64,000 bases of DNA. Origin: Patescibacteria group bacterium (GTDB lineage: Bacteria > Patescibacteriota > Patescibacteriia > Patescibacteriales > WJLG01). Positions 1,840 through 55,725 of the stretch are shown here, piece by piece; the stretch's first letter is position 1; each line of letters begins with the position of its first letter. The position numbers and the translations under genes are program-made. The notes beneath the pieces are model-generated. The model had not been told where the DNA came from, made no database searches, and was given only the letters and a program-made list of their open reading frames with translations. The stretch spans positions 4,096 to 68,095 of the forward strand of contig JBAZHE010000003.1 in assembly GCA_041652555.1 (NCBI GenBank). Direction: 5' to 3'.

Positions 1840-2465
1840 TCGAAAAAACAAAAGAAATATCAAAAGAACTATCTGAATATTCAGAGTCGGAACAATTGTT
1901 TTTACTCAATCAAATACGAACAATTCTTCACGAAACAAGTCCAATGAAAAATGAACCGGTTGATCTTGTGTTATGGGTCAAATCTGAAACAGTGGGAAAA
2001 AACGATTATAACCCAAATACCGTTGCACCCCCGGAGATGAAATTACTTGAAACTTCAATCATAGAAGATGGATATACGCAACCGGTAGTTTCTTGGAAAA
2101 CGAACAATATTTTTGAAGTTGTTGATGGATTCCACAGAACAAGAGTAGGAAAGGAAAGCAAAGATGTCATTACACGTACACATGGATATTTACCCATTGT
2201 TAAAGTCAATCAAGAACGAACTGATCGTAATGATCGTATGGCTTCCACAATCAGGCACAACCGCGCGCGGGGGAAGCATATCGTATCGGGTATGAGCGAA
2301 ATCGTACAAGAACTAGCACATCGCAGATGGAGTAACGAGAAGATTGGTCATGAACTGGGGATGGAACCCGATGAAGTGTTACGGTTAAAACAAGTAATGG
2401 GTCTTGCAGATTTATATAAAGAACGGGAATTTTCAGAAGCGTGGGAAGCGAAAGAACAAATTTAA
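1824..2465 (+). CDS. ParB N-terminal domain nuclease-like protein (IbrB-like)
   Basis: ParB-type motif VVDGFHRTRVG and ..HNRARGKH..; overlaps upstream PAPS-reductase gene; AAGGAG RBS 7 nt upstream. Confidence 0.75.
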   Translation: MGSDLIEKTKEISKELSEYSESEQLFLLNQIRTILHETSPMKNEPVDLVLWVKSETVGKNDYNPNTVAPPEMKLLETSIIEDGYTQPVVSWKTNNIFEVVDGFHRTRVGKESKDVITRTHGYLPIVKVNQERTDRNDRMASTIRHNRARGKHIVSGMSEIVQELAHRRWSNEKIGHELGMEPDEVLRLKQVMGLADLYKEREFSEAWEAKEQI

Positions 2466-2479
2466 AAAGGAGTATTAAA

Positions 2480-3208
2480 ATGCCACTACAAAAAGGTACG
2501 GAAAGATACAGATTGTGGAAAGAACACATTGATGAGGCTGCTGATAAAAGGAAAAATATTCCATTATCCCCAGAACATTGTGAAAAAATAAGCGAGTCTA
2601 ATAAAGGACGTATAAAATCTAAAGAAGAATGCGAACATATTAGCAAGGGGCTTAAAAACAAACCCAAGACACCGGAACATCGTAAGCATTTAAGTGAGGC
2701 CAATATGGGAAAAACGTCTCCAAGGAAAGGTGTAAAATTATCTGATGCAACAAAAGAAAAGATTCGAGTGTCGAAACTTGGAATGAAATCATCTTTAGAA
2801 ACATGCGAAAAAATAAGTGAATCTTTAATAGGAAATACCAGAACACTTGGTTATGTCCATTCTGATGAAACCAAAATTAAGATGAGAAAATCAGCACATC
2901 GTGGACCCGACCATCCCAATTATAGAGGGGGGATAACCGCACTTGATAAAGCAATACGAAGACTTCCTGAATATGATACTTGGAAATATGGTGTATTTGA
3001 ACGAGATGATTACACCTGTAGAGAATGTGGGAAACGCGGGGGAGATATGGAAAGTCACCACGATAGAAAAACATTTGCTCAAATTATAAAAGATAATAAT
3101 ATTAGAACTATCGAAGACGCATTAAATTGTAAAGAACTATGGGACATTGATAACGGAGTTACATTGTGTGTTGATTGCCACGACAAAAGACACACGAAGA
3201 AAGAATAG
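2480..3208 (+). CDS. HNH homing endonuclease with NUMOD3-type repeats
   Basis: Repeated H..K(I/L)SE..KG modules; C-terminal YTCRECG...ESHH...DNGVTLCVDCHDKRH (HNH with Zn cysteines); start moved to ATG 2480 behind AAGGAG RBS, N-terminus parallels paralogs. Confidence 0.8.
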   Translation: MPLQKGTERYRLWKEHIDEAADKRKNIPLSPEHCEKISESNKGRIKSKEECEHISKGLKNKPKTPEHRKHLSEANMGKTSPRKGVKLSDATKEKIRVSKLGMKSSLETCEKISESLIGNTRTLGYVHSDETKIKMRKSAHRGPDHPNYRGGITALDKAIRRLPEYDTWKYGVFERDDYTCRECGKRGGDMESHHDRKTFAQIIKDNNIRTIEDALNCKELWDIDNGVTLCVDCHDKRHTKKE

Positions 3209-3210
3209 AT

Positions 3211-3906
3211 ATGCCACCACCGAAAGATCCGGAAAAATATGCTGCATGGATAGAAAAACAAAGATTATCCCATATAGGGAAACATGCATCACAATCCACC
3301 ACTGATAAAATGATCGCGTCACATAAAGGTCTAATTCCTTGGAATAAAGGTGTGCCTTCAACAGAAGTATCCAAGCATAACCAAAGTATCGCATTAAAAA
3401 ACAAACCGAAACCCCCACGAACAAAAGAACATTGTGAAAATATAAGCAAATCAAAAATGGGAAAAAACAATCCGATGTTTGGAGAACATCATACATTTGA
3501 CGCACATATAAAAATGCACAACGCGCAATTGGGGAATACTAAAAAACTTGGATATCATTTCCCGTTAGAAACTAGAATAGGAATGAGTGAAGAAAATAGA
3601 GGAGAAAATGCATCCCGATGGGAAGGTGGGATAACTCCATTGAATAAAATGATCCGTGAGTCGTGGGAATATAGAGAATGGGTAATTGCCGTTTTCATTA
3701 GAGATAATTATACTTGCCAAAAATGCAAAACGCGCGGTGGGTATTTAGAAGCACACCACATAAAACTATTTTCTTTGATTTTAAAAGAATATAATATATT
3801 AACACTGGAAGATGCAAAGAATTGTAAAGAATTGTGGGACATAGATAATGGTATAACATATTGTGTAGATTGTCACAAAGACATACATTTCAAAAATAAT
3901 AAATAA
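3211..3906 (+). CDS. HNH homing endonuclease with NUMOD3-type repeats (paralog 2)
   Basis: MPPPKDPEKY N-terminus as in paralog 3; YTCQKCK..LEAHH...DNGITYCVDCHKDIH; directly abuts paralog 1 stop. Confidence 0.8.
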   Translation: MPPPKDPEKYAAWIEKQRLSHIGKHASQSTTDKMIASHKGLIPWNKGVPSTEVSKHNQSIALKNKPKPPRTKEHCENISKSKMGKNNPMFGEHHTFDAHIKMHNAQLGNTKKLGYHFPLETRIGMSEENRGENASRWEGGITPLNKMIRESWEYREWVIAVFIRDNYTCQKCKTRGGYLEAHHIKLFSLILKEYNILTLEDAKNCKELWDIDNGITYCVDCHKDIHFKNNK

Positions 3907-3907
3907 C

Positions 3908-4771
3908 ATGCCTCCTCCGAAAGATCCAAAAAAATACGACGAGTGGATAAGAAAAAACAGCGAAGCACATAAAAATAAACATCCGTCTGAAGAAACACGA
4001 AATAAATTAAAAGGAAGAAACCCGTGGAATAAAGGAATACCATTATCAGAAGAAGCAAAACAAAAATTGAGTGAATCTTGTAAAGGTAGAATCCCTTGGA
4101 ATAAAGGTGTCCCTCATAAACAAGAATCTAAAAATAAAATGAGCATAAAGAAAAAAGGTATCCCATTATCAGAAGAACATAAAAAACATTTATCCGAATC
4201 TCACAAAGGATTAAAGCCAAACGTGACTCCGGAATCTATAGAAAAAAATCGTATTGCTCATCTTGGTAAAAAGGCATCGGAAGAAACAAAAGAAAAGATG
4301 AGTATATCACATAAAGGAAAATCTTCGTGGAATAAAGGAATTAAAACTCCGATAGAAATTAGAAATAAAATGAGCAAATCGATGAAAGGAATAAAAAAGT
4401 CTGATGGATTTAGAAAAAATATGAGTGGTGAAAACAATCTTAACTGGAAAGGTGGTATTACAGAATTGGATAAAGCAATCCGTGCATTACCGGAAATGTT
4501 CGAGTGGAGAAGAAAAGTTTTTGAACGCGACCATTATAGAGATTGTTTTACAGGAAGTCTTGGAAATCACAATATCGAAGCGCATCATATTGTCGCGGTA
4601 TCTTTAATTATGGAAAGATTTAATATAACTTCGATAGAAGATGCTTTAAATTGTGAAGATATGTGGAATATAGATAACGGAGTAACAATGTTTAAAAATT
4701 CACATATTGAGCATCACAAAAAATACAAATTACAAATATTACCAAAAGAATATTATTTTAAAAACCAATAA
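3908..4771 (+). CDS. NUMOD3-repeat endonuclease paralog 3 with degenerate HNH
   Basis: About 8 copies of xSEExKxKxSxSxKGxxPWNKG; C-terminal IEAHH...DNGVTMFKNSHIEHH lacks the Zn-binding cysteines present in paralogs 1-2. Confidence 0.7.
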   Translation: MPPPKDPKKYDEWIRKNSEAHKNKHPSEETRNKLKGRNPWNKGIPLSEEAKQKLSESCKGRIPWNKGVPHKQESKNKMSIKKKGIPLSEEHKKHLSESHKGLKPNVTPESIEKNRIAHLGKKASEETKEKMSISHKGKSSWNKGIKTPIEIRNKMSKSMKGIKKSDGFRKNMSGENNLNWKGGITELDKAIRALPEMFEWRRKVFERDHYRDCFTGSLGNHNIEAHHIVAVSLIMERFNITSIEDALNCEDMWNIDNGVTMFKNSHIEHHKKYKLQILPKEYYFKNQ

Positions 4772-5764: not shown

Positions 5765-5844
5765 TAGGTCTGGCCGGAGTTGAACCGGCTTACACATAGA
5801 CCGTGTTTGAGACGGTTCCATAGCCGTTCTGGATACACAGACCC
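5765..5844 (-). tRNA. tRNA-Leu(CAA)-like, class II (long variable arm), irregular D region
   Basis: Hand fold on minus strand: acceptor GGGTCTG/CAGACCT (G1-U72), anticodon arm ACCGT-CTCAAAC-ACGGT, T arm GCCGG-TTCAACT-CCGGC; acceptor/D junction has extra nt. Confidence 0.6.
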
Positions 5845-5847
5845 AAA

Positions 5848-5929
5848 TGAGTGATGCCGGATGCGCGCCGGCGATGTTTCCTTGTACGGAGTCTAAATCC
5901 GGTGAAGTCGGCTTCTGTTCCAATCACTC
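5848..5929 (-). tRNA. tRNA-like gene, anticodon UAG (Leu), aberrant T and D loops
   Basis: Acceptor GAGTGAT/ATCACTC, anticodon loop TTTAGAC, long variable arm; T loop is CGCGCAT (no TTC) and D loop lacks GG. Confidence 0.4.
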
Positions 5930-5948
5930 TCGATTTCCCACAATGGGA

Positions 5949-6033
5949 TGCGTCCGTCAGGATTTGAACCTGAAATGTTTCGCTTCGTCACAGTGTTTAA
6001 GACTGTTGCGTTCAACCGTTTCGCCACGGACGC
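5949..6033 (-). tRNA. tRNA-Leu(UAA), class II
   Basis: Acceptor GCGTCCG/CGGACGC, D arm GCG-AAACGGTTGAA-CGC, anticodon arm ACAGT-CTTAAAC-ACTGT, T arm TCAGG-TTCAAAT-CCTGA. Confidence 0.85.
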
Positions 6034-6035
6034 GA

Positions 6036-6119
6036 TGTGTGAAGCAAGATTTGAACTTGCGTCGTTTCCTTGTCTGGAACCTCGATCCAGTGGAGTCAAC
6101 CGTGCTGTCCCATTCACAC
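6036..6119 (-). tRNA. tRNA-Leu(GAG), class II, C at position 33
   Basis: Acceptor GTGTGAA/TTCACAC, D arm GGA..TCC, anticodon arm CTGGA-TCGAGGT-TCCAG, T arm GCAAG-TTCAAAT-CTTGC. Confidence 0.7.
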
Positions 6120-6168
6120 ATAACTTATATGTTTTCAAATCATTTATACTTTCCCCTATGTAAGAGGA

Positions 6169-6253
6169 CGCCAACGACAGGAATTGAACCTGCAACCCTG
6201 TTAAGGGCGACGGTTTTCAGGACCGTTTAGCGCACCGCACTCCCCACGTTGGC
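6169..6253 (-). tRNA. tRNA-Ser(UGA)-like, class II, C33 and atypical D arm
   Basis: Acceptor GCCAACG/CGTTGGC, anticodon arm ACGGT-CCTGAAA-ACCGT, variable stem CCCT/AGGG, T arm GCAGG-TTCAATT-CCTGT. Confidence 0.55.
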
Positions 6254-6262
6254 AATAATATG

Positions 6263-6338
6263 AGCCGGATGAGAGAATTGAACTCCCGCCCTTTCGATTA
6301 CAGATCGAATGCACCAAACCAACAGATGCTTATCCGGC
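6263..6338 (-). tRNA. tRNA-Thr(UGU), class I, C at position 33
   Basis: Acceptor GCCGGAT/ATCCGGC, D arm GCAT..GTGC, anticodon arm TTCGA-TCTGTAA-TCGAA, T arm GGGAG-TTCAATT-CTCTC. Confidence 0.7.
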
Positions 6339-6340
6339 GA

Positions 6341-6428
6341 CGCTGCCTGAAAGATTTGAACTTTCGTTTCCGATCAGGAAAGCAACTTTAGCAGAATTGC
6401 GGCATAAACCAGACTCGCCCAAGGCAGC
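6341..6428 (-). tRNA. tRNA-Ser(GCU), class II
   Basis: Acceptor GCTGCCT/AGGCAGC, D arm GGC..GCC, anticodon arm CAATT-CTGCTAA-AGTTG, variable stem TTTCC/GGAAA, T arm GAAAG-TTCAAAT-CTTTC. Confidence 0.85.
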
Positions 6429-6580
6429 AAGATGAAACCAATACAAAACACCCTCACGATGTGGTGAGAAGCGTCAAACTGGACAGTAAACGCAATGATA
6501 GAATAGATGTTGATACGTTTATATTTACTGTCATGATATATAATAGTGTATGTTGTAATAGTATTTAAATATTTCTACAA

Positions 6581-6662
6581 TTGGTGGAGAGGGATTTGAA
6601 CCCTCGAAGCACTAAACACCGGATTTTGAATCCGGCCCCTTTGACCGCTCGGGTATCCACCA
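6581..6662 (-). tRNA. tRNA-Leu(CAA), class II, U1-A72
   Basis: Acceptor TGGTGGA/TCCACCA, D arm CCC-GAGCGGTCAAA-GGG, anticodon arm CCGGA-TTCAAAA-TCCGG, T arm GAGGG-TTCAAAT-CCCTC. Confidence 0.8.
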
Positions 6663-6792: not shown

Positions 6793-9700
6793 CTAAAAAC
6801 CCCACTTCCCCAACGTCGGAGTCGCCGGGTCAAACTCGCACCAGTTGAAATTCAACGGTTCCATAATCCGTGATAACGGAGTCTTTAAAGTCTTCTCTAA
6901 CATTGTATCAACATCAACTATAAAAATGTTTCTATCTATTTGATCCGCATACTCAAAACAAACTACATCCGTGCGCGGATATTTTGAAGTAACATTCTTA
7001 ATATATAAACGTTTCGGTTTTGACCCCTTACCAAAATTCGTTCCCAGATAAGTGTTAGAATACACCGCCGCGCGCACCTGCGCATCTTGGATATCATATT
7101 CTTCCAATGGTTTACCAATGCCGCCGGGAATTCCTACATCGTCGAGACTATATTTACCCGCGCGGTATTTACGTATAACATCCGAAATAGTAGTTCTGAT
7201 TTCTTCATAAGGTTTGCCCTCAAGAACCATCTCGATAAGTGTTTTCATTGCGTCACGTGTGACCTTGGGGGAATCCGACCGCTTGGTTTCAAAACCCACA
7301 ATATCAATTTTATGCGCGTCTACACCTTCCTTCCAAATAAGGAGTCCAGCGTATCGCTTCTTCTTCCCGCCGCTAAAAAATCTCTGGTATAATTTTTCAA
7401 ATTTCACGGAGAAATATTGAACATCGGCATTTAATGTTTCTTTTGCAAACTGTGGATATGAGTTATTAAGAAGCGTTTCAAGTTCCTTCGCAATAAACAT
7501 AGTTCCTTCTTTCCCAATACTTTTTGGTATCTTTATACCAACCGAATCGGTATCACCAAAAACAATTTTATATTCTTCGTGTTCTACAAGTTTTTTGTTG
7601 TGCTCCAAAAGCGCGCGCCCTACTGATGTAATAGCCGAACCCACGTCACGGTCATTAAGACGGAACATCGGATTTGCCGAAACCCCATAATAAGAATTCA
7701 TGCAAACCTTAACCACGTCCTGTTTCATATTTAAAAGTTTATACTCACGAGAATCAAAAGGATACTTATTCCGTTCCTTTTTCATCTCATCTCGTTCACG
7801 TAAAAATTTCGCCTGAATCTTTCTAACCAATCCATCGGGTTCTTTTTTAAATCTGACACCATTAGGAGCGCGCAGTTCTCCTTTTGGATCTTTGGTTTCT
7901 GGAGATGCATTAATAGTCATCATCGACATTGGATACAATGATTTAGCATCCAAAACAGCAACGTTTTCTTGCACTCCGCGCATGGGAGCAATAACCGTAG
8001 CCCCTTCAAACGATTCTTGTGTATTTATAGAATTTGCCTTTGAAGGTAAAATAAACCCATTTTCTTTTGCTTCTCTCAAAACCAACATATCAATAATAGG
8101 CATACTATTTGTTGTCTTTTCCAGAGGACACCCGGCATAATGAGCAACATACCTGTGGAATTCAACAGTTTCGTCTTTTGCATTAATACCTACACATAAT
8201 TCCACATCAGTGAAGTTATAGTAAACCAGATTGGTAGGATCTTCTTTCCATAAATCGAAAACCTTTCCATTGTGATGGATTTTTTGTTTCCCCAATTCTT
8301 CTAATGCTATTGCATCAAGGCGATAAGAAGGTTGTTCACCCAAATGCATTCTTTTATACCCGGATAATAAATCAAAAAGTTGACGACCTTTGATTTCTAT
8401 GCGCCCGGTGTTTCCACTAGGCAACCGCGACCACGCATCGCGCGGGATACCTAATACATCCATACGACCCAGAATGTAAGGTATATCAAATTCATTACAA
8501 TTATGTACAACGCAACCAATCGAAAAATTATGTTCTGTCGTTTCAATATCGTAGCAATTTTTAGGCACGTCGTTACTTACATTTTTTACCCGCAGATACA
8601 TATTAGTTAGATTTCTATTAAAATTAAATCTGAAATGATCTTTCCTAGTAACTCGTTTTCTCTTAATTATATGGATTTTATTTTTTATTTTCTTCTGCAA
8701 AAACTTTTTCATACACTCTAATAGTTTTTGGGTTATACATAAGATCCGTAAATTTATATTACATGTAGATGAAGTTATCGCACCAAATCCTGCAAATAAC
8801 TGAAAATGCCGAATATTAATAGTATGATCTCCTATACAAAAGACATCTGAATACCCATCGCCATCATACCATCCAGCTAAAAAAGCCCCGAACTCTTCTA
8901 CAGATAGACGAGATAATAAACCAAAATTGAGTTGTTTCTTATCACCAACCAGAATGAGATGTTCTGCCCCTTTTAGATCTCGCTGCAATATATTAGAACA
9001 CCAGACACCTTTTGTAAACCATCTATGGTTTTCCCCGCAACATCTATTAATGAGGTTTATATTTTTATTGTAAAATCTAAATCTCCACTTATCTGGTCTG
9101 GCGCCATCGGAATAAATAAGTCCAGCCCTGTAACAATTAAAAGGATCAAGCCCGAGACCAATATTATTTTCATACTGCCGTATTGGAATATGCAATATAC
9201 TATCAGAAGTTATATTTTTAGAAATTTCGTATGTTGGTTCATAGTTTTCGCAATGTTCCCACACATAATGACGATCTTGTGGAATTTGAGAAACTAACAT
9301 TCGATGATCTTCCCCAACAATAAAATCCCATCCAATAGATGTTCTTATACGAGTTGTATTCTTAACCCCCGTATTATAAACGGATACAACTTTTCCACCT
9401 GTGTTTAAAACAATACCCGGTATTAATGCCTTAATTGGTATAAGACCGTTTTTTGTGTCAACCATTGTATCTTCTGGAACGCAGTTCCACCCCGTAATAA
9501 TATCCGGATCTGTGGATTTGATATATTCACAAAAATCCACAAGAAGAGATTTTTCATCCGTGTATGTTATAACGTCGTGGTGAGCGGGATCAAAGCACCC
9601 GTTCTCTTTAGGTGTTTCTATAAGAGGTGAAGTAGCGACAACAAATGTAATATAACGATTTGTAAAACTATCATGACAAGTAATGCAAAAAATTGGATCT

Positions 9701-10164
9701 TTCGTTGCATCCGGGAACCCGCGTTCATCAGAACATTCAATATCCACAATACAAACGCGCGCGGGATAGTTTAAATCTTTGAATAATATGTCGTCAATCG
9801 TGCATGGTGATTGTGTATAAGAGAAACCAGATTTTATTTTTGTATCAATCAGAAACCTCAATGTGTATAAAATATCCGCTTCATAGTGTTTAGAAAACTT
9901 CTCGCGCGATTCAAAAATGTCACCGGGTTTTTGAGTAATGACTTTCACCAAAGGTTCATGGAGAATGGAAAAATATTCATTTGAATCAACTTCGGAGGGT
10001 GGTGTTGCTTTGGGGGATTCTGATGCGGGAACAAAAAAATAAGGTTTGAAACCAACCACATCCACACGATGAGAAACACCGGAGGAGTCACGACCGAAGA
10101 TGTTAATGACAGGAGAGTTGTTATGGAAGGAGTATTCGGCTTGAGTTAAGCAGAGATCAGGCAT
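6793..10164 (-). CDS. polB: family B DNA polymerase, intein-containing (795-aa extein + 328-aa intein)
   Basis: Exo I VDIECS, Exo II GWN/CNEFDIPY (split by intein), motif A DAKSLYPMSMM, motif B KVCMNSYYGV, motif C VFGDTDSV. Confidence 0.95.
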   Translation of the reverse strand: MPDLCLTQAEYSFHNNSPVINIFGRDSSGVSHRVDVVGFKPYFFVPASESPKATPPSEVDSNEYFSILHEPLVKVITQKPGDIFESREKFSKHYEADILYTLRFLIDTKIKSGFSYTQSPCTIDDILFKDLNYPARVCIVDIECSDERGFPDATKDPIFCITCHDSFTNRYITFVVATSPLIETPKENGCFDPAHHDVITYTDEKSLLVDFCEYIKSTDPDIITGWNCVPEDTMVDTKNGLIPIKALIPGIVLNTGGKVVSVYNTGVKNTTRIRTSIGWDFIVGEDHRMLVSQIPQDRHYVWEHCENYEPTYEISKNITSDSILHIPIRQYENNIGLGLDPFNCYRAGLIYSDGARPDKWRFRFYNKNINLINRCCGENHRWFTKGVWCSNILQRDLKGAEHLILVGDKKQLNFGLLSRLSVEEFGAFLAGWYDGDGYSDVFCIGDHTINIRHFQLFAGFGAITSSTCNINLRILCITQKLLECMKKFLQKKIKNKIHIIKRKRVTRKDHFRFNFNRNLTNMYLRVKNVSNDVPKNCYDIETTEHNFSIGCVVHNCNEFDIPYILGRMDVLGIPRDAWSRLPSGNTGRIEIKGRQLFDLLSGYKRMHLGEQPSYRLDAIALEELGKQKIHHNGKVFDLWKEDPTNLVYYNFTDVELCVGINAKDETVEFHRYVAHYAGCPLEKTTNSMPIIDMLVLREAKENGFILPSKANSINTQESFEGATVIAPMRGVQENVAVLDAKSLYPMSMMTINASPETKDPKGELRAPNGVRFKKEPDGLVRKIQAKFLRERDEMKKERNKYPFDSREYKLLNMKQDVVKVCMNSYYGVSANPMFRLNDRDVGSAITSVGRALLEHNKKLVEHEEYKIVFGDTDSVGIKIPKSIGKEGTMFIAKELETLLNNSYPQFAKETLNADVQYFSVKFEKLYQRFFSGGKKKRYAGLLIWKEGVDAHKIDIVGFETKRSDSPKVTRDAMKTLIEMVLEGKPYEEIRTTISDVIRKYRAGKYSLDDVGIPGGIGKPLEEYDIQDAQVRAAVYSNTYLGTNFGKGSKPKRLYIKNVTSKYPRTDVVCFEYADQIDRNIFIVDVDTMLEKTLKTPLSRIMEPLNFNWCEFDPATPTLGKWGF
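8500..9483 (-). mobile_element. intein with LAGLIDADG homing endonuclease in PolB (residues 228-555)
   Basis: Starts CVPEDTMVDTKNG, ends CVVHN followed by +1 Cys; two LAGLIDADG motifs (YRAGLIYSDGA, FLAGWYDGDGY); removal restores T4/RB69-like GWNxxxFDIPY. Confidence 0.9.
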
Positions 10165-16642: not shown

Positions 16643-17336
16643 ATGGAAACTTACGAAGATAAACTCATTAAAGAACGATATTGCGTCGATGGAGAAAATA
16701 GTTATCCCGATGTTTGTGAACGTGTAGCGCGATTCATTTCAAGCAACGACGAACAATATCATCAGTTCAAGAAAATTCTTGTAGATAAAGATTTTTTGCC
16801 CAACTCACCAACCCTGATGAATGCCGGAACTTCTAACCCCGCCTTGTCAGCGTGTTTCTTTTTGCCGGTAGAAGATACAATTGAAAGTATTTTTGATGCT
16901 AACAAAAATGCAGCAAAAATCTTCGCTCGTGGGGGCGGGGTCGGATTCAATTTCTCAAAACTCCGACCCGCTGGAAGCAAAGTTGGAAAACGCAACGGTG
17001 TTTCCTCCGGTGTGGTTTCATTTATGGAAGTTTTTAACACAATGACAGAGGTTGTCAAGCAAGGAGGCCGTCGCCGGGGAGCTATGATGGGATGCCTTGA
17101 TATTGCGCATCCAGAAATCAAAAACTTTGTGACATGTAAACAGACAGAAGGAAAACTCTCTAACTTTAATATCTCTGTCAAACTCACAGATGAATTCATG
17201 AAGAATCCCACACCCGAAATCATGAACTTGATTGTGAACGGAATTTACAATAACGGAGAGCCGGGAATTCTGTTCAAAGATACAATCGAAAAGTATAACC
17301 CGGCTCCCGAATATGGAGAACTCAATACAAATCCAT
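16643..17336 (+). CDS. nrdJ: class II (B12-dependent) ribonucleotide reductase, exon 1
   Basis: FLPNSPTLMNAG, LSACFFLPVEDT, GGGVGFNFSKLRPAGS, QGGRRRGAMM; exon ends ...NTNP + T (first base of the Cys codon). Confidence 0.9.
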
Positions 17337-17607
17337 TAAACTCCGTGTGGATTTAAAATCGCGTAAATTGCTGGAACACCCTTAAGCATCTCTAACTACA
17401 ACGCAATCAGAAATGATAAACGTGAACGTTTTAAAAATAGAAATGATTGGGCAATCAGCAGCCAAGCATCTTATCAATAAGATGAAGGTTCAGAGACTAT
17501 AGACGCGACATCGATGATATAGTCCGATCTCATATGAGAATATGAGAGTGTGACAGAAATGATCACACCTGCAACGAAGCATCGTTGCTGTAACAAAAAA
17601 CCTCTTG
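17337..17607 (+). ncRNA. group I self-splicing intron, 271 nt, no ORF
   Basis: P1: exon AATCCAT (17330-36) pairs with intron GTGGATT (17347-53), U-G wobble at the splice site; core CAGAGACTATA (17491-501) and GATATAGTCC (17516-25) with P7 GACTA/TAGTC; three 3' hairpins; terminal G 17607; splicing gives an in-frame TNPCGE. Confidence 0.85.
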
Positions 17608-19001
17608 GCGGGGAGGCTCTATTAGAATCATGGGGGAGCTGCAACTTGGGTAGCATCAACCTTTCCCACCACATAAAAGACAATGCAATTGACTACGACA
17701 AACTCAAAGCCACAATAGACACAGCGGTTATATTCCTCAATAATGTAATCGACAAAAACAAATACCCACTCCAAGAAATTGACTTTGCATCCAAGCGAAC
17801 GCGCAAGATCGGTCTCGGTGTTATGGGATTCCACGACGCGTTGATTAAAATGGGGATTCCTTATAATAGTCAGAAGGCACTTGATATTGCCGAAGAAATT
17901 ATGAAATTTATTAATGAGCGCGCACATGAAGTGTCAGAGTCATTGGGTAAGAATCCGAATATCAAACAGAACAGGTTAAATGCTTCATTGACTTCGATTG
18001 CACCAACGGGAACAATTAGTATTATTGCGGGTGCTTCATCAGGTATCGAACCCGCATTTAATTGGGTATATACGCGGCATGACACGTTGGGCGAACATTA
18101 TATTGTGCATCCGTTGTTTGAAGAAGCGTTGAAAAATCTAATGACTGATCTTAATGGCAAAGTAGGATTCTTCGTAACCGTGGATGGCGTAAAATATGAT
18201 ACGTTGGATGGAACGAGACAAGCCATTATTAGACACTGCCATGAAAAGGGGACGATTCGCGATATAGAATTTTTACCAGATTCTTTCAAACTCCTCTACC
18301 AAAACGCAATGGACATCCCTTCATCAATGCACGTAAAAATGCAGGCCACATTCCAAAAGAATGTGGATATGTCCATTTCAAAAACAATCAACCTTCCAAA
18401 CTCTGCTACTAAAGAAGAAATCAAACAGATCATTATTGACGCGTGGAAGAGTGGTTGTAAAGGTCTTACAATCTATCGCAATGGTAGCCGTGAGAATGAA
18501 GTGTTGGCACTTAAGAAACCCGTGGTTGTTGAAAGTATCGTAGATTGGATCGAAACTGAAAATGCTTTCTACGAATCCAAAACCCCCGCTGTAATTTACA
18601 AAGTCCATAGTGGATGCGGGAAATTCTATGTTATCATTGGCCACGACAAAGAGGAACCAACAATGATCTTTGTGGAAGGTGATGGTGTTGGTGGGTGTCA
18701 GGCAAATATGGCAGCAATGGGGCGTTCTATTTCGGCAGGATTGGAATGGGGGACACCAGCAGAGAACTATGTAAAACAATTCTCTAAAGTAAAGTGCATG
18801 ACGGCGATGCAGAACAAATTATCGTGTGGTAAATCGTGCGCGGATATTACAGGAAAATGTTTGGACGATGCGATAAAAATGTTAATGCCCAAAAGTATAA
18901 AGGTTGAAGCAACAGAAGAAAAATGTTGTGACGCGCCGCATTATGTGATGGAAGGCGGATGCAGGATTTGTACGAATTGTGGCAAAAGTAGGTGTTCGTG
19001 A
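17608..19001 (+). CDS. nrdJ: class II ribonucleotide reductase, exon 2
   Basis: Begins GC GGG GAG.. giving C-GEALLESWGSCNLGSINL; RKIGLGVMGFHDAL, TSIAPTGTIS, ISKTINLP; Cys-rich C-terminal tail; exons total 2088 nt = 695 aa. Confidence 0.9.
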
Positions 19002-21538: not shown

Positions 21539-21777
21539 TTAGAATAAAAATAATAGAAAATGCTGGAAATCATTTTGCTCAACGATTTTTAAAAAATTGT
21601 TTTGGTGGTGATGAAGCAGTAGCATACCTCGCATCCCAAAAAGCACATTGGCTTGAAAATCACGAAAGGGAAATTGGATTTCTCACTAAAGAATTCGGGG
21701 ATTTAAAAATATCGATTGGAGATGATTATGAGTTGTTTGATTCCGAATACACCGATTTATTTGAGGTTGTTGAATGA
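21535..21777 (+). CDS. hypothetical protein (80 aa)
   Basis: ORF track; ATGA overlaps at both ends. Confidence 0.5.
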   Translation: MIRIKIIENAGNHFAQRFLKNCFGGDEAVAYLASQKAHWLENHEREIGFLTKEFGDLKISIGDDYELFDSEYTDLFEVVE

Positions 21778-23330
21778 TTATCCAAGGCGACGCTTTAACA
21801 GTTTTGAAAAGGATGGATAGTGAGTCAGTGCATTGTGCGGTAACGTCAAGTCCATATTATGGATTGCGTTCGTACAATACCGAACCACAAATATGGGATG
21901 GAGATCCAAACTGCCAACATGAATGGGGGGAAGTTCATCCACCGGGATATAGATCATCTGATACAAAACCGGGTCCAATGCAACATGAAGGGAATACGCA
22001 CCGTGAGAATTTGCGAAGTGATATTTGTTCAAAGTGTGGAGCGTGGAAAGGTGAACTGGGACAAGAGCCTACACCTGAATTGTTTGTTAAACACCTAACA
22101 ACTATCTTTCATGAATTAAAAAGGATTTTAAGAAGCGACGGTGTTTTCTGGATGAATATTGGGGATAGTTATTGTGCTTCTAAATGCGGATCGTTCAACG
22201 GTGGATCAGATATTCTTAAAGGAAGAAATCTTGAAGGTCACTCTAAATCCGGGAATGTAGATAAGTCAAAACTTATGGGAATGAAACCCAAAGACCTTAT
22301 TGGTATCCCGTGGGCTTTAGCATTTTCTATGCGCTCCGATGGTGCCTCATCACCACAGACAATGTATACAGTAGAAAAAATCAAAACTTCGTTGCTTCGA
22401 GATTATGATACTTGGAATGACGTTCCAAAACATACTAAAAGAACAATTGAAGATTTGGATGAAGAGTGGTTAAAAGCAAGTAAGGGGGGTTGGTATCTCC
22501 GTTCTGATATTCCTTGGGTAAAAAGAAATTCACTTCCATCATCTGTAACAGATCGCCCCGGCTCTTCCATTGAACACATATTCTTATTCTCAAAATCACA
22601 GAAATATTACTATGACTACATAGCAACAATGCAACTTTCATCAGAATCTTACAACAAAGATAAAAGACCGCGCGGTGTTATTCGTCAATGCGTAAACACA
22701 AACTCCAAGTATCCAGATGGGGGGCAATTTAAAAAGCAAGATAACACAGGGAATGAAACTTACACAGGATTTAACGCTCGCTATGAACCTAATGGTTATG
22801 GCCTTCGTTACATGCGGGATTCCGATTTCTTCTTCAAGACATGGCAAGGACTTCTTCACAATGAAGATGGTGAACCAATGGCTCTTGTGGTAAATCCGAA
22901 ACCGTATAAAGGTTCACATTTTGCCGCATATCCGATAAGGCTTGTAGAACCCCTAATTCTCGCGGGAACATCAGAAAAAGGCGTTTGCCCACATTGTGGA
23001 GCGCCGTGGGTTAGAGTTGCGAAAAAAGAATCATATATAACTCGCCCCACCATTGGTTCTGATGATCAGAAGCAAAAACTCAATCCCGGTAATGCGCAGG
23101 GATTAGAACGCACTGGTGGTCATGTTGCTCAAATTACTGAAACCATAGATTGGCAACCATCTTGTAATTGCACAAATAACATACCAGTTCCCGCCACAAT
23201 TCTCGATCCCTTCTCCGGCTCATCAGCAACCGGTGTCGCTTGTAAACTCCATAATCGTGATTATATTGGTATAGAACTCAATCCTGAATATTGTGAACTT
23301 GGAAGAAAACGTATTCGTGAAGGCAAATAA
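21774..23330 (+). CDS. N4-cytosine / N6-adenine DNA methyltransferase (beta class), large insertion
   Basis: Motif IV VTSSPYYGLRSY near N-terminus, motif I ILDPFSGSSATGVA near C-terminus; no adjacent nuclease. Confidence 0.85.
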   Translation: MIIQGDALTVLKRMDSESVHCAVTSSPYYGLRSYNTEPQIWDGDPNCQHEWGEVHPPGYRSSDTKPGPMQHEGNTHRENLRSDICSKCGAWKGELGQEPTPELFVKHLTTIFHELKRILRSDGVFWMNIGDSYCASKCGSFNGGSDILKGRNLEGHSKSGNVDKSKLMGMKPKDLIGIPWALAFSMRSDGASSPQTMYTVEKIKTSLLRDYDTWNDVPKHTKRTIEDLDEEWLKASKGGWYLRSDIPWVKRNSLPSSVTDRPGSSIEHIFLFSKSQKYYYDYIATMQLSSESYNKDKRPRGVIRQCVNTNSKYPDGGQFKKQDNTGNETYTGFNARYEPNGYGLRYMRDSDFFFKTWQGLLHNEDGEPMALVVNPKPYKGSHFAAYPIRLVEPLILAGTSEKGVCPHCGAPWVRVAKKESYITRPTIGSDDQKQKLNPGNAQGLERTGGHVAQITETIDWQPSCNCTNNIPVPATILDPFSGSSATGVACKLHNRDYIGIELNPEYCELGRKRIREGK

Positions 23331-26958: not shown

Positions 26959-27143
26959 AAGATGGTTATAAATTAACAATATTTTTAAGTGTTATAGTAA
27001 TAATATTGGCAATATTTATACATGGCACAGTTATTCATTTAACACAAGTGGGTGAATTTCAAAAATGTGTAAATGCAACACTTTCTGATCCACTCTATTC
27101 CACATTTGCATGTGATAGACCGGGATGGTGGTTTGGAATATGA
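26955..27143 (+). CDS. small membrane protein (62 aa)
   Basis: ORF track; one TM helix; AAGGAGG RBS. Confidence 0.5.
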   Translation: MKDGYKLTIFLSVIVIILAIFIHGTVIHLTQVGEFQKCVNATLSDPLYSTFACDRPGWWFGI

Positions 27144-29617
27144 AAATCCTTTTTATCTTACCTAGATTTAATAAAGGTTTCGGAACTGTCTACAATGAAA
27201 ACGAAACCGGTATTGACTATGATTACTTAATGCCCGTGGGAATGCCCTACATCGCTTCTTATCTCAAACACAATGGATGTGATGTCTCGGCATTAAACCT
27301 TAATCACACACCCGGATTGGTTAAAAACATTGTACAAAAAACTATTACTGACACTCACTATGATTTCGTATTCACCGGCACAATTTCCATAATGTATCCC
27401 GCTGTGCGCGATATAATAAAATATGTACACGAAGCATCTCCCAATACAATAACCGTCTGTGGTGGAGGTATCATTTCGTCTAACCCCGAACTAATGATGA
27501 AACTTATTAATCCACATTACGGGATTATTTTTGAGGGTGAAGAAACAGCATTAGAGTTGATACAAACTATTGAGAAGGGGCAATCTGTGGAAAATGTTAA
27601 AGGTATTATTTATTCAACAACATGGCCTATTCCAACGTTTACTAAAACACAACCACGCCCCCAAATCAAAAACCTAGATGCACTCCCGTTTCCCGATCTT
27701 GAACTATTCGGTTATTCCGAATACTTGAAACACCAAGAACTTGGCGGTTGGAATCAATATCCACGAGATTATCCACCGCGCCCGTATATGTTGGTTTCAG
27801 CGCGCGGTTGTTCGGCAAATTGTTTATCAGGAGACACTTTAATTGCAACCACAAATGGCAACATTAAAATAAAAGATCTCGTTGGGCAGACCCCAAAAGT
27901 TCTTACACGAGATCCAATTACAAAAGATGTATTATATGCACAGTCCTCAATAGTTGCTAAAACCGGAGAAAATAAAAATCTCGTTAGAGTTTCATTTAAA
28001 GAGGGGGGATATATTGACTGTACACCAGATCACAAATTTGTAAAATTTTTAAACTCAAACCAATATGTCCCGTTGAGAGAGTATGAAACGGAAGCACAAT
28101 TTTTGAGACCCGGTGATAGTGTTCGTGCTGTTCATTATAAATTGAGCACCACTGGTTACACGATTATAATATGGGGAAGGAAAAAGCATCGATATCAGCA
28201 CACTTTAATAATGGAATCTATGATTGGAAGGAAACTCTCACAATACGAAAGGGTTCATCACAATGATCATAATCAAATAAATAATGTTGAAAAAAATTTA
28301 ACACTTACCGACAATCATAAACATATCCCAACTTACCATCCAGAACTATCACAACGTATGAAAGATAATAATCCCGCAAAAAATCTACCACACGAATTTT
28401 TTGTGCAACGCGGAAAAGAACAACGTGGTAAAGTTCGCTCTATAGAATCCAGAATGAATTATAAAGCATCCAAAACGGGGAATAAAAATCCGATGTGGAA
28501 AGGTGGTTGTGGAAGAACAACAAAATCCCGTATACCCGGGCAACCAGATGTAAATCACGTAGTTAAAAGCGTTGAACCACTAGATGGGTTACATAATACG
28601 TATTGTTTAGAAGTGCCGGGATATAATTGGTTCTATGCCAACGACGTTCTTGTTCATAATTGCACATTTTGCTACCACACAACCGGCCCAAAATACCGCT
28701 ACCGTTCCGCAGAAAATATAATGTCAGAAATCAAATACGTTGTTGAAAAATACCACATTAACTTCTTCACATTTCTTGACGAATTGTTTTCATACGATAA
28801 AGCGCGCGCACTTGAATTCTGCCGACAATTTAAAGAATATCAGAAAACCATTCCGTGGCGAATTGAAATGTATTGCAATCTGCGCGTTGATTGCGCGGAC
28901 GCAGAACTTCTTGATGCCATGAAATCCTGTGGGAATGTAGTTATCGGATTAGGTCTCGAAAGTTACAACCAAAAAGTTCTCGATTCAATGCGAAAACACA
29001 TAACACCCGCGCAGATTGAAACCACGCTTGGAATGATCGCAGAAAGAAATCTTGTTCCGCAAGGGGGGTTCATCTTTGGAGATAATGCAGAAACACTTTC
29101 CACCGCACGCACTACTTTACAATTCATTCGAGAACACCCACATCTTTCACGAGGTGGTTTATTTATGGGCTTTATTATTCCGTTTCCCGGGACCGCTATT
29201 TATAAACATGCTTTACAAAATGGAATCATAAAAGATGAAATAGAATTTATTAATAAATTGACAAGCACGGATTATAATTATGATAACGTATGTAATCTCA
29301 CAAATTTATCAGATGAAGATTTTGACACGTTGAAAAATGAAGTGTTCACTTTAAAATACACAGCAATTCCCGTATCTGTTCCAACAAAAATAACCAATGA
29401 TGAAATCTTTGTAAAATGCCCCCATTGTGGGAAGATGCAAACTTATAAAACAACTAAACGACCACATGCGCAATTCAGCGTGGGGGTAATTTGTAATAAC
29501 CCCGAATGTAATGGAAGATTTGAAATGGGCACACGATATATTCAATTGGGGAGACTCGCTGTAAAGTTATTGGGATTTAAAAGAATGCGACGGATTAAAA
29601 ATTGGATGGGGATTTGA
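27140..29617 (+). CDS. B12-binding-domain radical SAM enzyme, intein-containing
   Basis: N-terminal Rossmann-like B12 domain (KILFILP.., VCGGG), radical SAM motif C-SAN-[intein]-C-TF-C, C-terminal Cys-rich zinc ribbon; ATGA start at 27140. Confidence 0.8.
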   Translation: MKILFILPRFNKGFGTVYNENETGIDYDYLMPVGMPYIASYLKHNGCDVSALNLNHTPGLVKNIVQKTITDTHYDFVFTGTISIMYPAVRDIIKYVHEASPNTITVCGGGIISSNPELMMKLINPHYGIIFEGEETALELIQTIEKGQSVENVKGIIYSTTWPIPTFTKTQPRPQIKNLDALPFPDLELFGYSEYLKHQELGGWNQYPRDYPPRPYMLVSARGCSANCLSGDTLIATTNGNIKIKDLVGQTPKVLTRDPITKDVLYAQSSIVAKTGENKNLVRVSFKEGGYIDCTPDHKFVKFLNSNQYVPLREYETEAQFLRPGDSVRAVHYKLSTTGYTIIIWGRKKHRYQHTLIMESMIGRKLSQYERVHHNDHNQINNVEKNLTLTDNHKHIPTYHPELSQRMKDNNPAKNLPHEFFVQRGKEQRGKVRSIESRMNYKASKTGNKNPMWKGGCGRTTKSRIPGQPDVNHVVKSVEPLDGLHNTYCLEVPGYNWFYANDVLVHNCTFCYHTTGPKYRYRSAENIMSEIKYVVEKYHINFFTFLDELFSYDKARALEFCRQFKEYQKTIPWRIEMYCNLRVDCADAELLDAMKSCGNVVIGLGLESYNQKVLDSMRKHITPAQIETTLGMIAERNLVPQGGFIFGDNAETLSTARTTLQFIREHPHLSRGGLFMGFIIPFPGTAIYKHALQNGIIKDEIEFINKLTSTDYNYDNVCNLTNLSDEDFDTLKNEVFTLKYTAIPVSVPTKITNDEIFVKCPHCGKMQTYKTTKRPHAQFSVGVICNNPECNGRFEMGTRYIQLGRLAVKLLGFKRMRRIKNWMGI
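27821..28660 (+). mobile_element. intein with HNH endonuclease domain (280 aa) inside the radical SAM CxxxCxxC motif
   Basis: Starts CLSGDTLIATTNG, block B TPDHKF, ends NDVLVHN + Cys; internal HRYQH..VHHNDHNQINN..NL..H HNH signature. Confidence 0.85.
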
Positions 29618-55652: not shown

Positions 55653-55725
55653 GTTCGCATAGCACAATTGGTAGTGCGTCGGGATTGCAATCCGAAGGTT
55701 GGGGGTTCAACTCCCCCTGCGAACT
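55653..55725 (+). tRNA. tRNA-Ala(UGC)-type (anticodon call only; no G3-U70)
   Basis: Acceptor GTTCGCA/TGCGAAC, D arm GCAC-AATTGGTA-GTGC, anticodon arm TCGGG-ATTGCAA-TCCGA, T arm GGGGG-TTCAACT-CCCCC; flanks extend the acceptor helix by 3 bp (gga/tcc). Confidence 0.8.

What the first reader, a model, noticed from the sequence alone, without database searches (positions are those of the whole stretch)
8500..9483. PolB intein inserted in the Exo II motif of the exonuclease domain
Removing residues 228-555 (CVPEDT...VVHN) joins ...DIITGWN to CNEFDIPYILGR. This recreates the T4/RB69-type Exo II motif GWNxxxFDIPY. As far as I recall, the classical family-B polymerase intein sites (pol-a, pol-b, pol-c) all lie in the polymerase motifs, not the 3'-5' exonuclease domain. 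This would therefore be a distinct insertion point. The intein keeps both LAGLIDADG motifs, so it may still be mobile.
Basis: partly seen in the sequence, partly recalled or inferred. Interest (0 to 1): 0.6.

Follow-up and report, generated by a model that had tools for sequence, protein, structure and literature searches.

The report
Known-site (polB-d) intein in viral polymerase
A virus DNA polymerase gene is interrupted by a real self-splicing intein in the proofreading (Exo II) motif, but this insertion site is the already catalogued "polB-d" site, so it is a new viral example and not a new kind of insertion.

Summary
Window 8500-9483 (minus strand) encodes a 328-aa insert, residues 228-555 of a 1123-aa family B DNA polymerase. 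It starts with Cys, ends with His-Asn and is followed by Cys.

- **Clean insertion:** 31 close relatives (55-87% identical) lack exactly these residues and read GWN[S/F/Y..]xxFDxPY.
- **Same intein elsewhere:** two other contigs carry it at the same spot.
- **Fold:** an AlphaFold model (pLDDT 89) matches endonuclease-containing inteins (TliVMA, PI-PfuI, PI-SceI).
- **Endonuclease intact:** both LAGLIDADG motifs keep their acidic residues. The endonuclease region shows purifying selection as strong as in the polymerase.
- **Position:** the site lies between the Asn and the Phe-Asp of Exo II (Pfu N210|G211).

The novelty claim fails. A scan of one genome per species found the same junction, GWN|C...HN|CDDFDAPY, in about 30 haloarchaeal polymerase genes. 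Two of those inteins are the sequences in the published "polB-d" alignment (Soucy 2014). Novikova 2016 also lists an exonuclease-domain site. The window's intein is homologous to them.

The allele is also common in uncultivated viruses: 108 clusters at 50% identity and about 45 IMG/VR contigs. Four intein queries found it in none of 50,697 GenBank phage records.

Verdict: a new, probably still mobile, viral member of a known intein allele. Interest is low to moderate.

The parts
6793..10164 (-). Family B DNA polymerase precursor gene (1123 aa, including the intein; mature protein 795 aa)
   Evidence: ORF list. Pfam DNA_pol_B_exo1 at aa 92-227 and DNA_pol_B at aa 691-1032. Best solved relative is Pyrobaculum calidifontis PolB 5mdn, E 1e-54.
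9484..10164 (-). N-extein (aa 1-227): N-terminal domain and first part of the exonuclease domain. Includes Exo I (VDIECS, 9730-9747) and the N-side of Exo II (ITGWN, 9484-9498).
8500..9483 (-). Intein, 328 aa (precursor aa 228-555), class 1, with an embedded LAGLIDADG homing endonuclease
   Evidence: Precisely absent from 31 relatives. Homologous inteins occur at the same site. Family profile hits PDB inteins. AF2 model pLDDT 89 matches TliVMA, PI-PfuI and PI-SceI.
9481..9483 (-). Cys1 of the intein (block A nucleophile)
   Evidence: Invariant in all 108 family representatives at this site and in alignments A1-A3
9295..9315 (-). Block B (GEDHRML). His60 of the intein is invariant. The usual Thr three residues before it is Gly in this clade.
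   Evidence: Alignments A1 and A3
9100..9132 (-). LAGLIDADG motif 1 (YRAGLIYSDGA); acidic residue is intein Asp126
   Evidence: G121 and G127 invariant; Y118, Y124 and D126 at least 90% conserved. Profile matches I-DmoI/I-CreI and PI-SceI endonuclease domains.
8851..8883 (-). LAGLIDADG motif 2 (FLAGWYDGDGY); acidic residue is intein Asp209
   Evidence: F201, G204, D209 and G210 invariant
8500..8556 (-). Blocks F and G (CYDIETTEHNFSIGCVVHN): Asp312, penultimate His327, terminal Asn328
   Evidence: D312, T315, H327 and N328 invariant. All 108 representatives end in HN.
8476..8499 (-). Start of the C-extein: Cys+1 (8497-8499), then NEFDIPY, the C-side of Exo II with the catalytic Asp (precursor D560)
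   Evidence: The +1 residue is Cys in 94 and Ser in 14 of 108 representatives. Aligns to Pfu G211-Y218 with F214/D215.
6793..8499 (-). C-extein (aa 556-1123 plus stop): rest of the exonuclease domain (Exo III YYNFTDVEL, 8197-8223) and the polymerase domain (motif A 7924-7950, motif B 7684-7710, motif C 7543-7563)

Best explanation
Window 8500-9483 (-) is a canonical class 1 intein with an embedded two-motif LAGLIDADG homing endonuclease. It is inserted in frame in the Exo II motif of a viral family B DNA polymerase, at the site already catalogued as polB-d.

**Inferred mechanism**
1. The 1123-aa precursor is translated.
2. Cys1 (precursor C228) undergoes an N-S acyl shift.
3. Cys+1 (C556) attacks the thioester.
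4. Asn328 (N555) cyclises, helped by the penultimate His, and releases the intein.
5. An S-N shift seals ...ITGWN-CNEFDIPY..., giving a 795-aa polymerase with an intact Exo II motif.
6. The excised 328-aa protein would cleave intein-free polB alleles (such as ...ACTGGTTGGAAT|TCAACCGATTTTGAT... in relative L002) during co-infection. Repair would then copy the intein in (homing).

**Shown**
- The exact boundaries, all splice-site residues and the clean presence/absence polymorphism.
- Homology to known inteins and the predicted HINT + LAGLIDADG fold.
- Conservation of both catalytic Asp residues and purifying selection on the endonuclease region.
- Identity of the site with haloarchaeal polB-d.

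**Inferred**
- Actual splicing, endonuclease activity and homing.
- That the exonuclease is inactive until splicing.
For: **Boundaries and junction residues.** C1...HN|C at exactly 8500-9483.

**Presence/absence.**
- Relatives P0001-P0032 (55-87% identical) lack the insert, and the spliced length of 795 aa matches their 791-827 aa.
- The same 328-aa intein at the same site occurs in two independent contigs: L001/P0006 (65% aa identity) and IMG/VR L073 (83.5% aa identity, syntenic genome).

**Homology to inteins.**
- Distant PolBs P0035, P0045 and P0047 carry homologous inserts at GWN|C...HN|CxxFDIPY. In the Pfam scan of the five-intein alignment that includes them, 3 members match LAGLIDADG_3 and 2 match Intein_splicing.
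- Family profiles hit solved inteins: Ssp DnaB 6e-5; gp41-1 5.5e-12, TliVMA 9e-7 over nearly full length, I-DmoI/I-CreI 2.5e-4 and PI-SceI 0.011.

**Structure.** AF2 model pLDDT 89, pTM 0.89. Foldseek top hits are all endonuclease-containing inteins: TliVMA E 2e-12 with TM 0.64, then PhoVMA, PI-PfuI, PI-SceI and PI-TkoII.

**Endonuclease constraint.** Between the window and L001, pN is 0.21 against pS 0.76 (saturated) in the endonuclease region. The C-extein gives 0.22 against 0.86. D126 and D209 are conserved.

**Exo II position.** Gap-free alignment to Pfu DPDIIVTYN210GDSFD215FPY.

**Identity with polB-d.**
- The genome scan found about 30 haloarchaeal loci, of which 19 were resolved as ~450-aa inteins at TGWN|CLPADS...CLVHN|CDDFDAPY.
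- The L031 and L065 inteins equal the published polB-d sequences.
- The window's intein matches them at BLASTP E 3e-13, 24-28% identity over 220-270 aa.
Against: - No experiment shows splicing or cleavage.
- The single sequence is not recognised by Pfam. NCBIfam intein_Nterm gives only E 0.1, so recognition rests on profiles and structure.
- The usual block B Thr is Gly in this clade.
- At 328 aa it is among the shorter members of the family (range 269-474, median 380). Haloarchaeal copies are about 450 aa, so some DNA-recognition elements may be missing.
- No co-conversion tract is visible in the flanks, so recent homing is not demonstrated.
- Intein and extein have diverged about equally between lineages (65% vs 67% aa; 83.5% vs ~83%). 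This also fits long vertical inheritance with repeated precise loss.
Confidence: 0.9

Rival explanations
1. It is a new, previously uncatalogued PolB insertion site.
For: - It is clearly not pol-a, pol-b or pol-c. The insertion is at extein residue 227/228 in the exonuclease domain, upstream of the Pfam DNA_pol_B domain.
- Four intein queries found no such intein in 50,697 GenBank phage records.
Against: - The published polB-d inteins of Natrialba hulunbeirensis and Halorubrum Hd13 lie at exactly this junction in their genomes.
- Novikova 2016 lists an exonuclease-domain insertion point in PolB.
- In Soucy 2014, polB-d is not flagged as a newly discovered allele.
Confidence: 0.03
2. It is a decaying intein. 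It still splices, because it must for the polymerase to work, but the endonuclease is dead and the element is now inherited only vertically.
For: - It is shorter than the haloarchaeal copies (328 vs ~450 aa).
- Intein and extein divergences are about equal between lineages.
- No co-conversion tract is seen.
Against: - Both catalytic Asp residues and the LAGLIDADG helices are conserved.
- The endonuclease region has pN 0.21 against saturated pS 0.76, the same constraint as the polymerase. A dead domain should drift or be deleted, as in the visibly degraded Haloquadratum walsbyi polB-d copy.
- The model shows a complete two-lobed endonuclease domain at high confidence.
- The distribution in the clade is patchy. 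The two intein-bearing lineages placed in the tree are each sister to an intein-free one.
Confidence: 0.2
3. It is not an intein. It is a lineage-specific inserted domain of the exonuclease domain that stays in the mature protein, or an assembly artefact.
For: Single-sequence Pfam, NCBIfam and PDB searches do not call it an intein.
Against: - All splice-junction residues are present and invariant across 108 family representatives.
- Family profiles hit solved inteins, and the fold matches HINT + LAGLIDADG inteins.
- The insert splits the catalytic Exo II motif, which would be incompatible with function if it were retained.
- Three independent assemblies carry it (window, L001, L073).
Confidence: 0.02

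Closest known systems
polB-d intein allele of Halobacteria (Soucy et al. 2014, PMC4071816; the exonuclease-domain insertion point of Novikova et al. 2016, PMC4760082)
   Same: - Identical insertion point, ...TGWN | C-x-x-F-D-x-P-Y..., in Exo II.
- Cys1, terminal His-Asn and Cys+1.
- A two-motif LAGLIDADG endonuclease.
- Detectable sequence homology (E 3e-13, 24-28% identity over the endonuclease and C-terminal splicing regions; compare block F/G ETTTHNFIAEGCLVHN with ETTEHNFSIGCVVHN).
   Different: - The host gene is a viral PolB only about 31-33% identical to haloarchaeal-virus PolBs, not a haloarchaeal chromosomal PolB.
- The intein is about 120 aa shorter (328 vs ~450 aa).
- It has low G+C and no acidic halophile composition.
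- Soucy 2014 recorded this allele in 6 Halobacteria, 1 other euryarchaeon and 0 bacteria, with no viral copies.
Classical archaeal PolB inteins pol-a, pol-b and pol-c (for example Tli Pol-1/2, KOD Pol-1/2, PI-TkoII, Psp-GBD Pol)
   Same: Same host protein family, the same HINT + LAGLIDADG architecture and the same class 1 chemistry. PI-TkoII (2cw7) is a structural match.
   Different: Those sites lie in the polymerase catalytic domain. This one is in the 3'-5' exonuclease domain, about 510 extein residues upstream of motif C.
TliVMA / PhoVMA and PI-SceI / PI-PfuI (solved endonuclease-containing inteins)
   Same: Best structural matches to the model (E 2e-12 to 1e-7, TM 0.50-0.64) and profile matches.
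   Different: Different host proteins (V-ATPase, RNR). Only 10-17% sequence identity. PI-SceI and PI-PfuI have extra DNA-recognition regions that this short intein lacks.
Uncultivated-virus PolB inteins at the same site (P0111-P0228 clusters; IMG/VR loci L068-L127)
   Same: Same site and the same intein family. 108 of the top 150 representatives are full inteins at GWN|[C/S]xx[F/Y]D. About 45 IMG/VR contigs carry it.
   Different: The one extein tested (P0125) is a T4-like gp43-type polymerase (~30% identical to cyanophage gp43). The C-flanks of many others read FDIPYIINRIK, as in RB69/T4 by recollection (not tested). The window's extein is of the archaeal PolB3 / E. coli Pol II type. Most of those inteins are 340-470 aa.

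Membership tests
Intein (HINT splicing domain, class 1) | N-terminal Cys/Ser nucleophile (block A) | tested here: met
   Cys at precursor residue 228; invariant in 108/108 family representatives
Intein (HINT splicing domain, class 1) | Block B His (TxxH) | tested here: met
   Intein His60 is invariant in A1 and A3. The Thr is replaced by Gly in this clade and is Ser in most relatives, so the motif is partly non-canonical.
Intein (HINT splicing domain, class 1) | C-terminal His-Asn followed by Cys/Ser/Thr +1 (block G) and block F Asp | tested here: met
   ...YDIETTEHNFSIGCVVHN|C. HN in 108/108; +1 is Cys in 94 and Ser in 14.
Intein (HINT splicing domain, class 1) | In-frame insertion precisely absent from orthologues, with restoration of a conserved host motif | tested here: met
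   Relatives P0001-P0032 lack it. The spliced sequence is colinear with solved PolBs.
Intein (HINT splicing domain, class 1) | HINT fold | tested here: met
   AF2 model pLDDT 89. Foldseek hits TliVMA, PI-PfuI, PI-SceI, gp41-1, the DnaB mini-intein and hedgehog Hint.
Intein (HINT splicing domain, class 1) | Autocatalytic protein splicing | not testable with these tools
   Needs expression of the precursor
LAGLIDADG homing endonuclease (two-motif, monomeric) | Two LAGLIDADG helices, each ending in a catalytic acidic residue | tested here: met
   YRAGLIYSD126G and FLAGWYDGD209G. D209 is invariant and D126 at least 90% conserved.
LAGLIDADG homing endonuclease (two-motif, monomeric) | Two alpha-beta-beta-alpha-beta-beta-alpha lobes | tested here: met
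   Model residues 114-259 show this pattern at pLDDT 70-96. Matches I-Tsp061I, I-SceI and I-DmoI/I-CreI.
LAGLIDADG homing endonuclease (two-motif, monomeric) | Selective constraint on the endonuclease region | tested here: met
   pN 0.21 against pS 0.76 over intein residues 111-290, between the window and L001
LAGLIDADG homing endonuclease (two-motif, monomeric) | Site-specific cleavage of the intein-free allele, and homing | not testable with these tools
   Only indirect evidence: patchy distribution among close relatives
polB-d intein allele | Same insertion position in PolB as the published polB-d inteins | tested here: met
   Published polB-d inteins equal those of loci L031 and L065, which are flanked by TGWN| and |C[D/E]DFD[A/V]PY. 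The window reads TGWN| and |CNEFDIPY.
polB-d intein allele | Intein sequence homologous to polB-d inteins | tested here: met
   BLASTP E 3e-13 to 3e-7, 24-28% identity over 220-307 aa to 19 haloarchaeal inteins. The E-values are for a small database.
pol-a / pol-b / pol-c alleles | Insertion within the polymerase catalytic domain | tested here: not met
   The insertion is at extein residue 227/228, in DNA_pol_B_exo1. Motifs A, B and C lie at precursor aa 739-874. [quoted passage not shown]
Exo II motif of family B polymerases (N-x2-3-[F/Y]-D) | The flanks of the insert form the motif and align to the motif of solved enzymes | tested here: met
   Aligned to Pfu ...TYN210GDSF214D215FPY... without a gap. 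That N210 and D215 are Exo II residues is from my own knowledge of Pfu/KOD exonuclease mutants.

The most novel reading that the evidence does not exclude
The polB-d intein may not be a mainly haloarchaeal element. It may be chiefly a viral intein family that circulates among very different family B polymerases, with viruses as the reservoir and cross-domain vector:
- T4-like gp43-type polymerases;
- the archaeal-PolB3 / Pol II-like type seen in this window;
- bacterial chromosomal Pol II-like genes in Myxococcota and Rhodothermales MAGs;
- haloarchaeal PolB.

I found no report of viral or bacterial copies of this allele. Soucy 2014 counted 0 in Bacteria.
Probability: 0.45. Interest if true: 0.4.

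Novelty: new member of a known kind. Interest (0 to 1): 0.25.

Why it matters
- **For annotation.** The gene should be called as one intein-containing polymerase with a 795-aa mature product.
- **For intein biology.**
  - The catalogued but little-studied exonuclease-domain allele of PolB extends to viruses and bacteria. It now has more than 100 diverse clusters, against 7 sequences in the published alignment.
  - The invaded position sits between the Asn and the Phe-Asp of a catalytic motif shared by polymerases only about 25% identical. That is the kind of immutable target homing endonucleases favour.
- **For applications.** The 328-aa Cys1/Cys+1 intein and its relatives could be tried as conditional switches of proofreading activity. 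Nothing here shows that they work as such.

It does not change what is known about how inteins work.

Tried and rejected
- **Single-sequence searches of the intein.** Pfam, NCBIfam, PDB phmmer and the word-indexed protein search found nothing usable. The word-indexed search even missed P0006, whose intein is 65% identical. This reflects tool sensitivity, not absence.
- **First AlphaFold run.** A 5-sequence alignment gave pLDDT 36 and was discarded. The 21-row version worked.
- **Co-conversion tracts.** Sliding-window identity against the intein-free relative L002 and the intein-bearing L073 showed no clear tract around the junction.
- **dN/dS.** Synonymous sites are saturated between the window and L001, so only pN and pS are reported.
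- **Host assignment stays open.**
  - PolB is closest to haloarchaeal tailed viruses (31-33%).
  - The Cas4-like exonuclease is closest to proteobacterial phages (46%).
  - A group I intron and one relative binned with Tissierellia point to a bacterial host.
- **DNA methylase at 21774-23330.** I considered a third intein there. No splice-junction signature is present.
- **Literature.** Searches for a viral Exo II or exonuclease-domain PolB intein found none. The library covers open-access papers only.
Full report
**1. The observation**

The region lies in one ORF, 6793..10164 on the minus strand, encoding 1123 aa. Pfam finds the family B exonuclease domain at aa 92-227 and the polymerase domain at aa 691-1032, with nothing recognised in between. 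Residues 228-555 (CVPEDT...CVVHN) map exactly to 8500-9483. Removing them joins ...DPDIITGWN to CNEFDIPYILGR and leaves 795 aa. The insert has lower G+C than the rest of the gene (0.335 vs 0.397). The coordinates and the description are correct.

**2. Is it a real insertion?**

A search of 5.8 billion protein clusters with the whole precursor returned 32 close relatives, 55-87% identical.
- Thirty-one lack the segment. The 28 full-length ones are 791-827 aa, and those with a readable junction read GWN[S/F/Y/V/I]xxFDxPY.
- One, P0006 on a 3-kb JGI contig (L001), has a 328-aa insert at the same place, 65% identical to the window's.
- An IMG/VR contig, L073, is syntenic with the window at about 77% nucleotide identity. 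It carries the same insert at 83.5% aa identity.

The element therefore occurs in three independent assemblies and is cleanly absent from their nearest relatives. In a neighbour-joining tree of the exteins, the window is sister to intein-free P0003 and P0006 is sister to intein-free P0023. The distribution is patchy.

**3. Is it an intein?**

The single sequence is too divergent for Pfam, NCBIfam (intein_Nterm E 0.1) or a PDB sequence search. The evidence comes from relatives, profiles and structure.
- **Relatives.** Three distant PolBs (P0035, P0045, P0047; exteins 25-28% identical) have 407-449-aa inserts at the same junction. These align with the window's insert block by block. In the Pfam scan of that five-intein alignment, 3 members match LAGLIDADG_3 and 2 match Intein_splicing.
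- **Profiles.** A five-sequence profile hits the Ssp DnaB intein (6e-5) and other solved inteins. A 24-sequence profile with the window's sequence first hits gp41-1 (5.5e-12), the TliVMA intein over nearly its whole length (9e-7), the I-DmoI/I-CreI endonuclease (2.5e-4) and PI-SceI (0.011).
- **Structure.** An AlphaFold2 model built on a 21-sequence alignment has pLDDT 89 and pTM 0.89. Its twelve best Foldseek matches in the PDB are all endonuclease-containing inteins: TliVMA (E 2e-12, TM 0.64), PhoVMA, PI-PfuI, PI-SceI and PI-TkoII. Free-standing LAGLIDADG enzymes and mini-inteins follow.
- **Splicing residues.** All are present and invariant in the family: Cys1, His60 (block B), Asp312 (block F), His327-Asn328 and Cys+1. 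The only oddity is Gly in place of the block B Thr.

**4. Is the endonuclease alive?**

- Both LAGLIDADG motifs (YRAGLIYSD126GA and FLAGWYDGD209GY) keep the acidic residue at the catalytic position. D209 is invariant and D126 at least 90% conserved among 21 relatives.
- Between the window and L001, synonymous sites are saturated (pS 0.76). Non-synonymous divergence in the endonuclease region is 0.21, the same as in the polymerase C-extein (0.22). The endonuclease has therefore been under purifying selection as strong as that on an essential enzyme.
- By contrast, the published Haloquadratum walsbyi polB-d copy has visibly degraded motifs.
- I saw no co-conversion tract in the flanks, so recent homing is not shown. 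Between the window and L073 the intein is slightly more similar (81.7% nt) than the extein (about 75-77% nt). That is weakly suggestive of transfer and no more.

**5. Where in the polymerase?**

The spliced protein aligns without a gap across the junction to solved PolBs. Against Pfu it reads dpdiitgwN|cneFDipy over dpdiivtyN210 gdsF214D215fpy. The intein therefore sits between the Asn and the xxFD of Exo II, five residues before the catalytic Asp. That these Pfu residues are Exo II is from my own knowledge of Pfu/KOD exonuclease mutants. Exo I (VDIECS), Exo III (YYNFTDVEL) and polymerase motifs A-C are all intact.

**6. Is the site new? No.**

Novikova et al. 2016 state that archaeal PolB has four insertion points, a-d. 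Three lie in the polymerase domain and an additional one lies in the 3'-5' exonuclease domain. Soucy et al. 2014 list a polB-d allele in six Halobacteria and Archaeoglobus profundus, and do not flag it as newly discovered.

To locate polB-d, I scanned one genome per species (GTDB, 185,579 species) for DNA encoding HN|CxxFDxP[Y/F].
- About 30 of the 64 hits are in Halobacteria.
- In 19 of them I could read the whole element: a ~450-aa intein flanked by DPDxxTGWN| and |C[D/E]DFDxPY.
- The inteins in Natrialba hulunbeirensis JCM 10989 (L031) and Halorubrum sp. Hd13 (L065) are the sequences in the published polB-d alignment (supplementary file 25 of PMC4071816).
- polB-d is therefore exactly this Exo II site.
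- The window's intein is homologous to the haloarchaeal ones (BLASTP E 3e-13, 24-28% identity over 220-270 aa; compare ETTTHNFIAEGCLVHN with ETTEHNFSIGCVVHN).

**7. What is new?**

- **Scale.** A profile search of 1.84 billion representative proteins found 777 relatives of the intein, 94 below 1e-30. Of the top 150, 108 are complete inteins at GWN|[C/S]xx[F/Y]D in family B polymerases. Every one starts with Cys and ends with HN.
- **Host polymerases.** The one extein tested (P0125) is a T4-like gp43-type polymerase, about 30% identical to cyanophage gp43. Many others have gp43-like C-flanks, which I did not test.
- **Viral contigs.** About 45 of the 60 IMG/VR contigs found with the junction pattern carry the allele.
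- **Bacteria.** Bacterial Pol II-like genes in Myxococcota and Rhodothermales MAGs carry it at GHN|C...HN|CxxFDFPY.
- **Deposited phages.** Four different intein queries found no PolB copy in 50,697 GenBank phage records.
- **Literature.** I found no paper describing viral or bacterial copies.

The window is thus a new viral member of a known allele. The allele is much more widespread, and more viral, than the literature I could read indicates.

**8. Context**

The window is a replication, nucleotide-metabolism and glycosyltransferase region of a large uncultivated virus.
- **Genes.** Class II-like RNR, Prim-Pol/DUF3987 primase-helicase, SNF2 helicase, Cas4-like exonuclease, methyltransferases and a 7-tRNA cluster next to polB.
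- **Other selfish elements.**
  - A group I intron splits the RNR gene.
  - A second, HNH-type intein sits inside the CxxxCxxC motif of a B12/radical-SAM enzyme.
  - Several free-standing NUMOD3/HNH endonuclease genes are present.
- **Host.** Unresolved. PolB resembles haloarchaeal-virus PolBs. The intron, the Cas4-like nuclease and the binning of one relative point to bacteria.

**9. Verdict**

The intein and Exo II interpretations are confirmed, and the claim that the endonuclease is probably still functional is reasonably supported. The claim of a distinct, uncatalogued insertion point is refuted, because this is polB-d. It is a new member of a known kind, of modest interest.

Noticed in passing
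window 27125-29617 (+); intein about 27821-28660: A second intein in the window. An 830-aa B12-binding/radical-SAM protein carries a 280-aa intein (CLSGDTL...NDVLVHN|C), which Pfam recognises as Intein_splicing. It sits inside the [4Fe-4S] motif: removing it turns CSAN|...|CTFC into CxxxCxxC, so the +1 Cys is a cluster ligand. The insert has an HNH-like stretch (HHNDHNQINN), not LAGLIDADG.
   Followed up: partly
window 17327-17546 (+), between ORFs 16643-17356 and 17550-19001: A group I intron (Rfam RF00028, 67 bits, E 6.5e-15) splits the ribonucleotide reductase gene into two ORFs. The relative L002 has one uninterrupted 682-aa RNR. By my recollection group I introns are typical of bacteria and their phages and not of archaea, which hints at a bacterial host.
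   Followed up: partly
window 2441-4771 (+); also 39287-40168 (-) and 45857-46960 (-): Three consecutive NUMOD3-containing ORFs (two of them with weak HNH matches), plus two further ORFs with HNH domains. The genome is unusually rich in homing-endonuclease genes. L002 has a similar NUMOD3 cluster.
   Followed up: no
window 5765-6662 (-): A cluster of seven tRNA genes (four Leu, two Ser, one Thr) lies immediately downstream of polB. Two more tRNAs lie at 55653 and 62978. Rfam confirms only some of them at its gathering score.
   Followed up: no
L005 (Myxococcota MAG) and L014 (Rhodothermales MAG): Bacterial Pol II-like PolB genes carry inteins of about 420-440 aa at the same Exo II position (DPDVIEGHN|CF...THN|C[L/Y][G/A]FDFPYL). 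Intein-free relatives (a Rhodothermales MAG and several Chloroflexota) read GHNCxxFDxPY natively. Soucy 2014 recorded no bacterial polB-d.
   Followed up: partly
The word-indexed protein search with the intein alone returned no hit. Yet P0006, whose intein is 65% identical over 328 aa, is in the same database and was found with the whole precursor. A negative result from that tool is not evidence of absence.
   Followed up: no
Supplementary file 25 of PMC4071816; loci L050 and L066: The Haloquadratum walsbyi polB-d inteins have degraded LAGLIDADG motifs (YAIGRVLHNR; LAGTLDGSETG). They look like endonuclease-dead copies, unlike the window's intein.
   Followed up: no
window 21774-23330 (+): A 518-aa N6/N4 DNA methyltransferase matches its 221-position Pfam profile in two stretches spread over aa 19-404. 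There is a large internal insert but no intein junction signature.
   Followed up: partly
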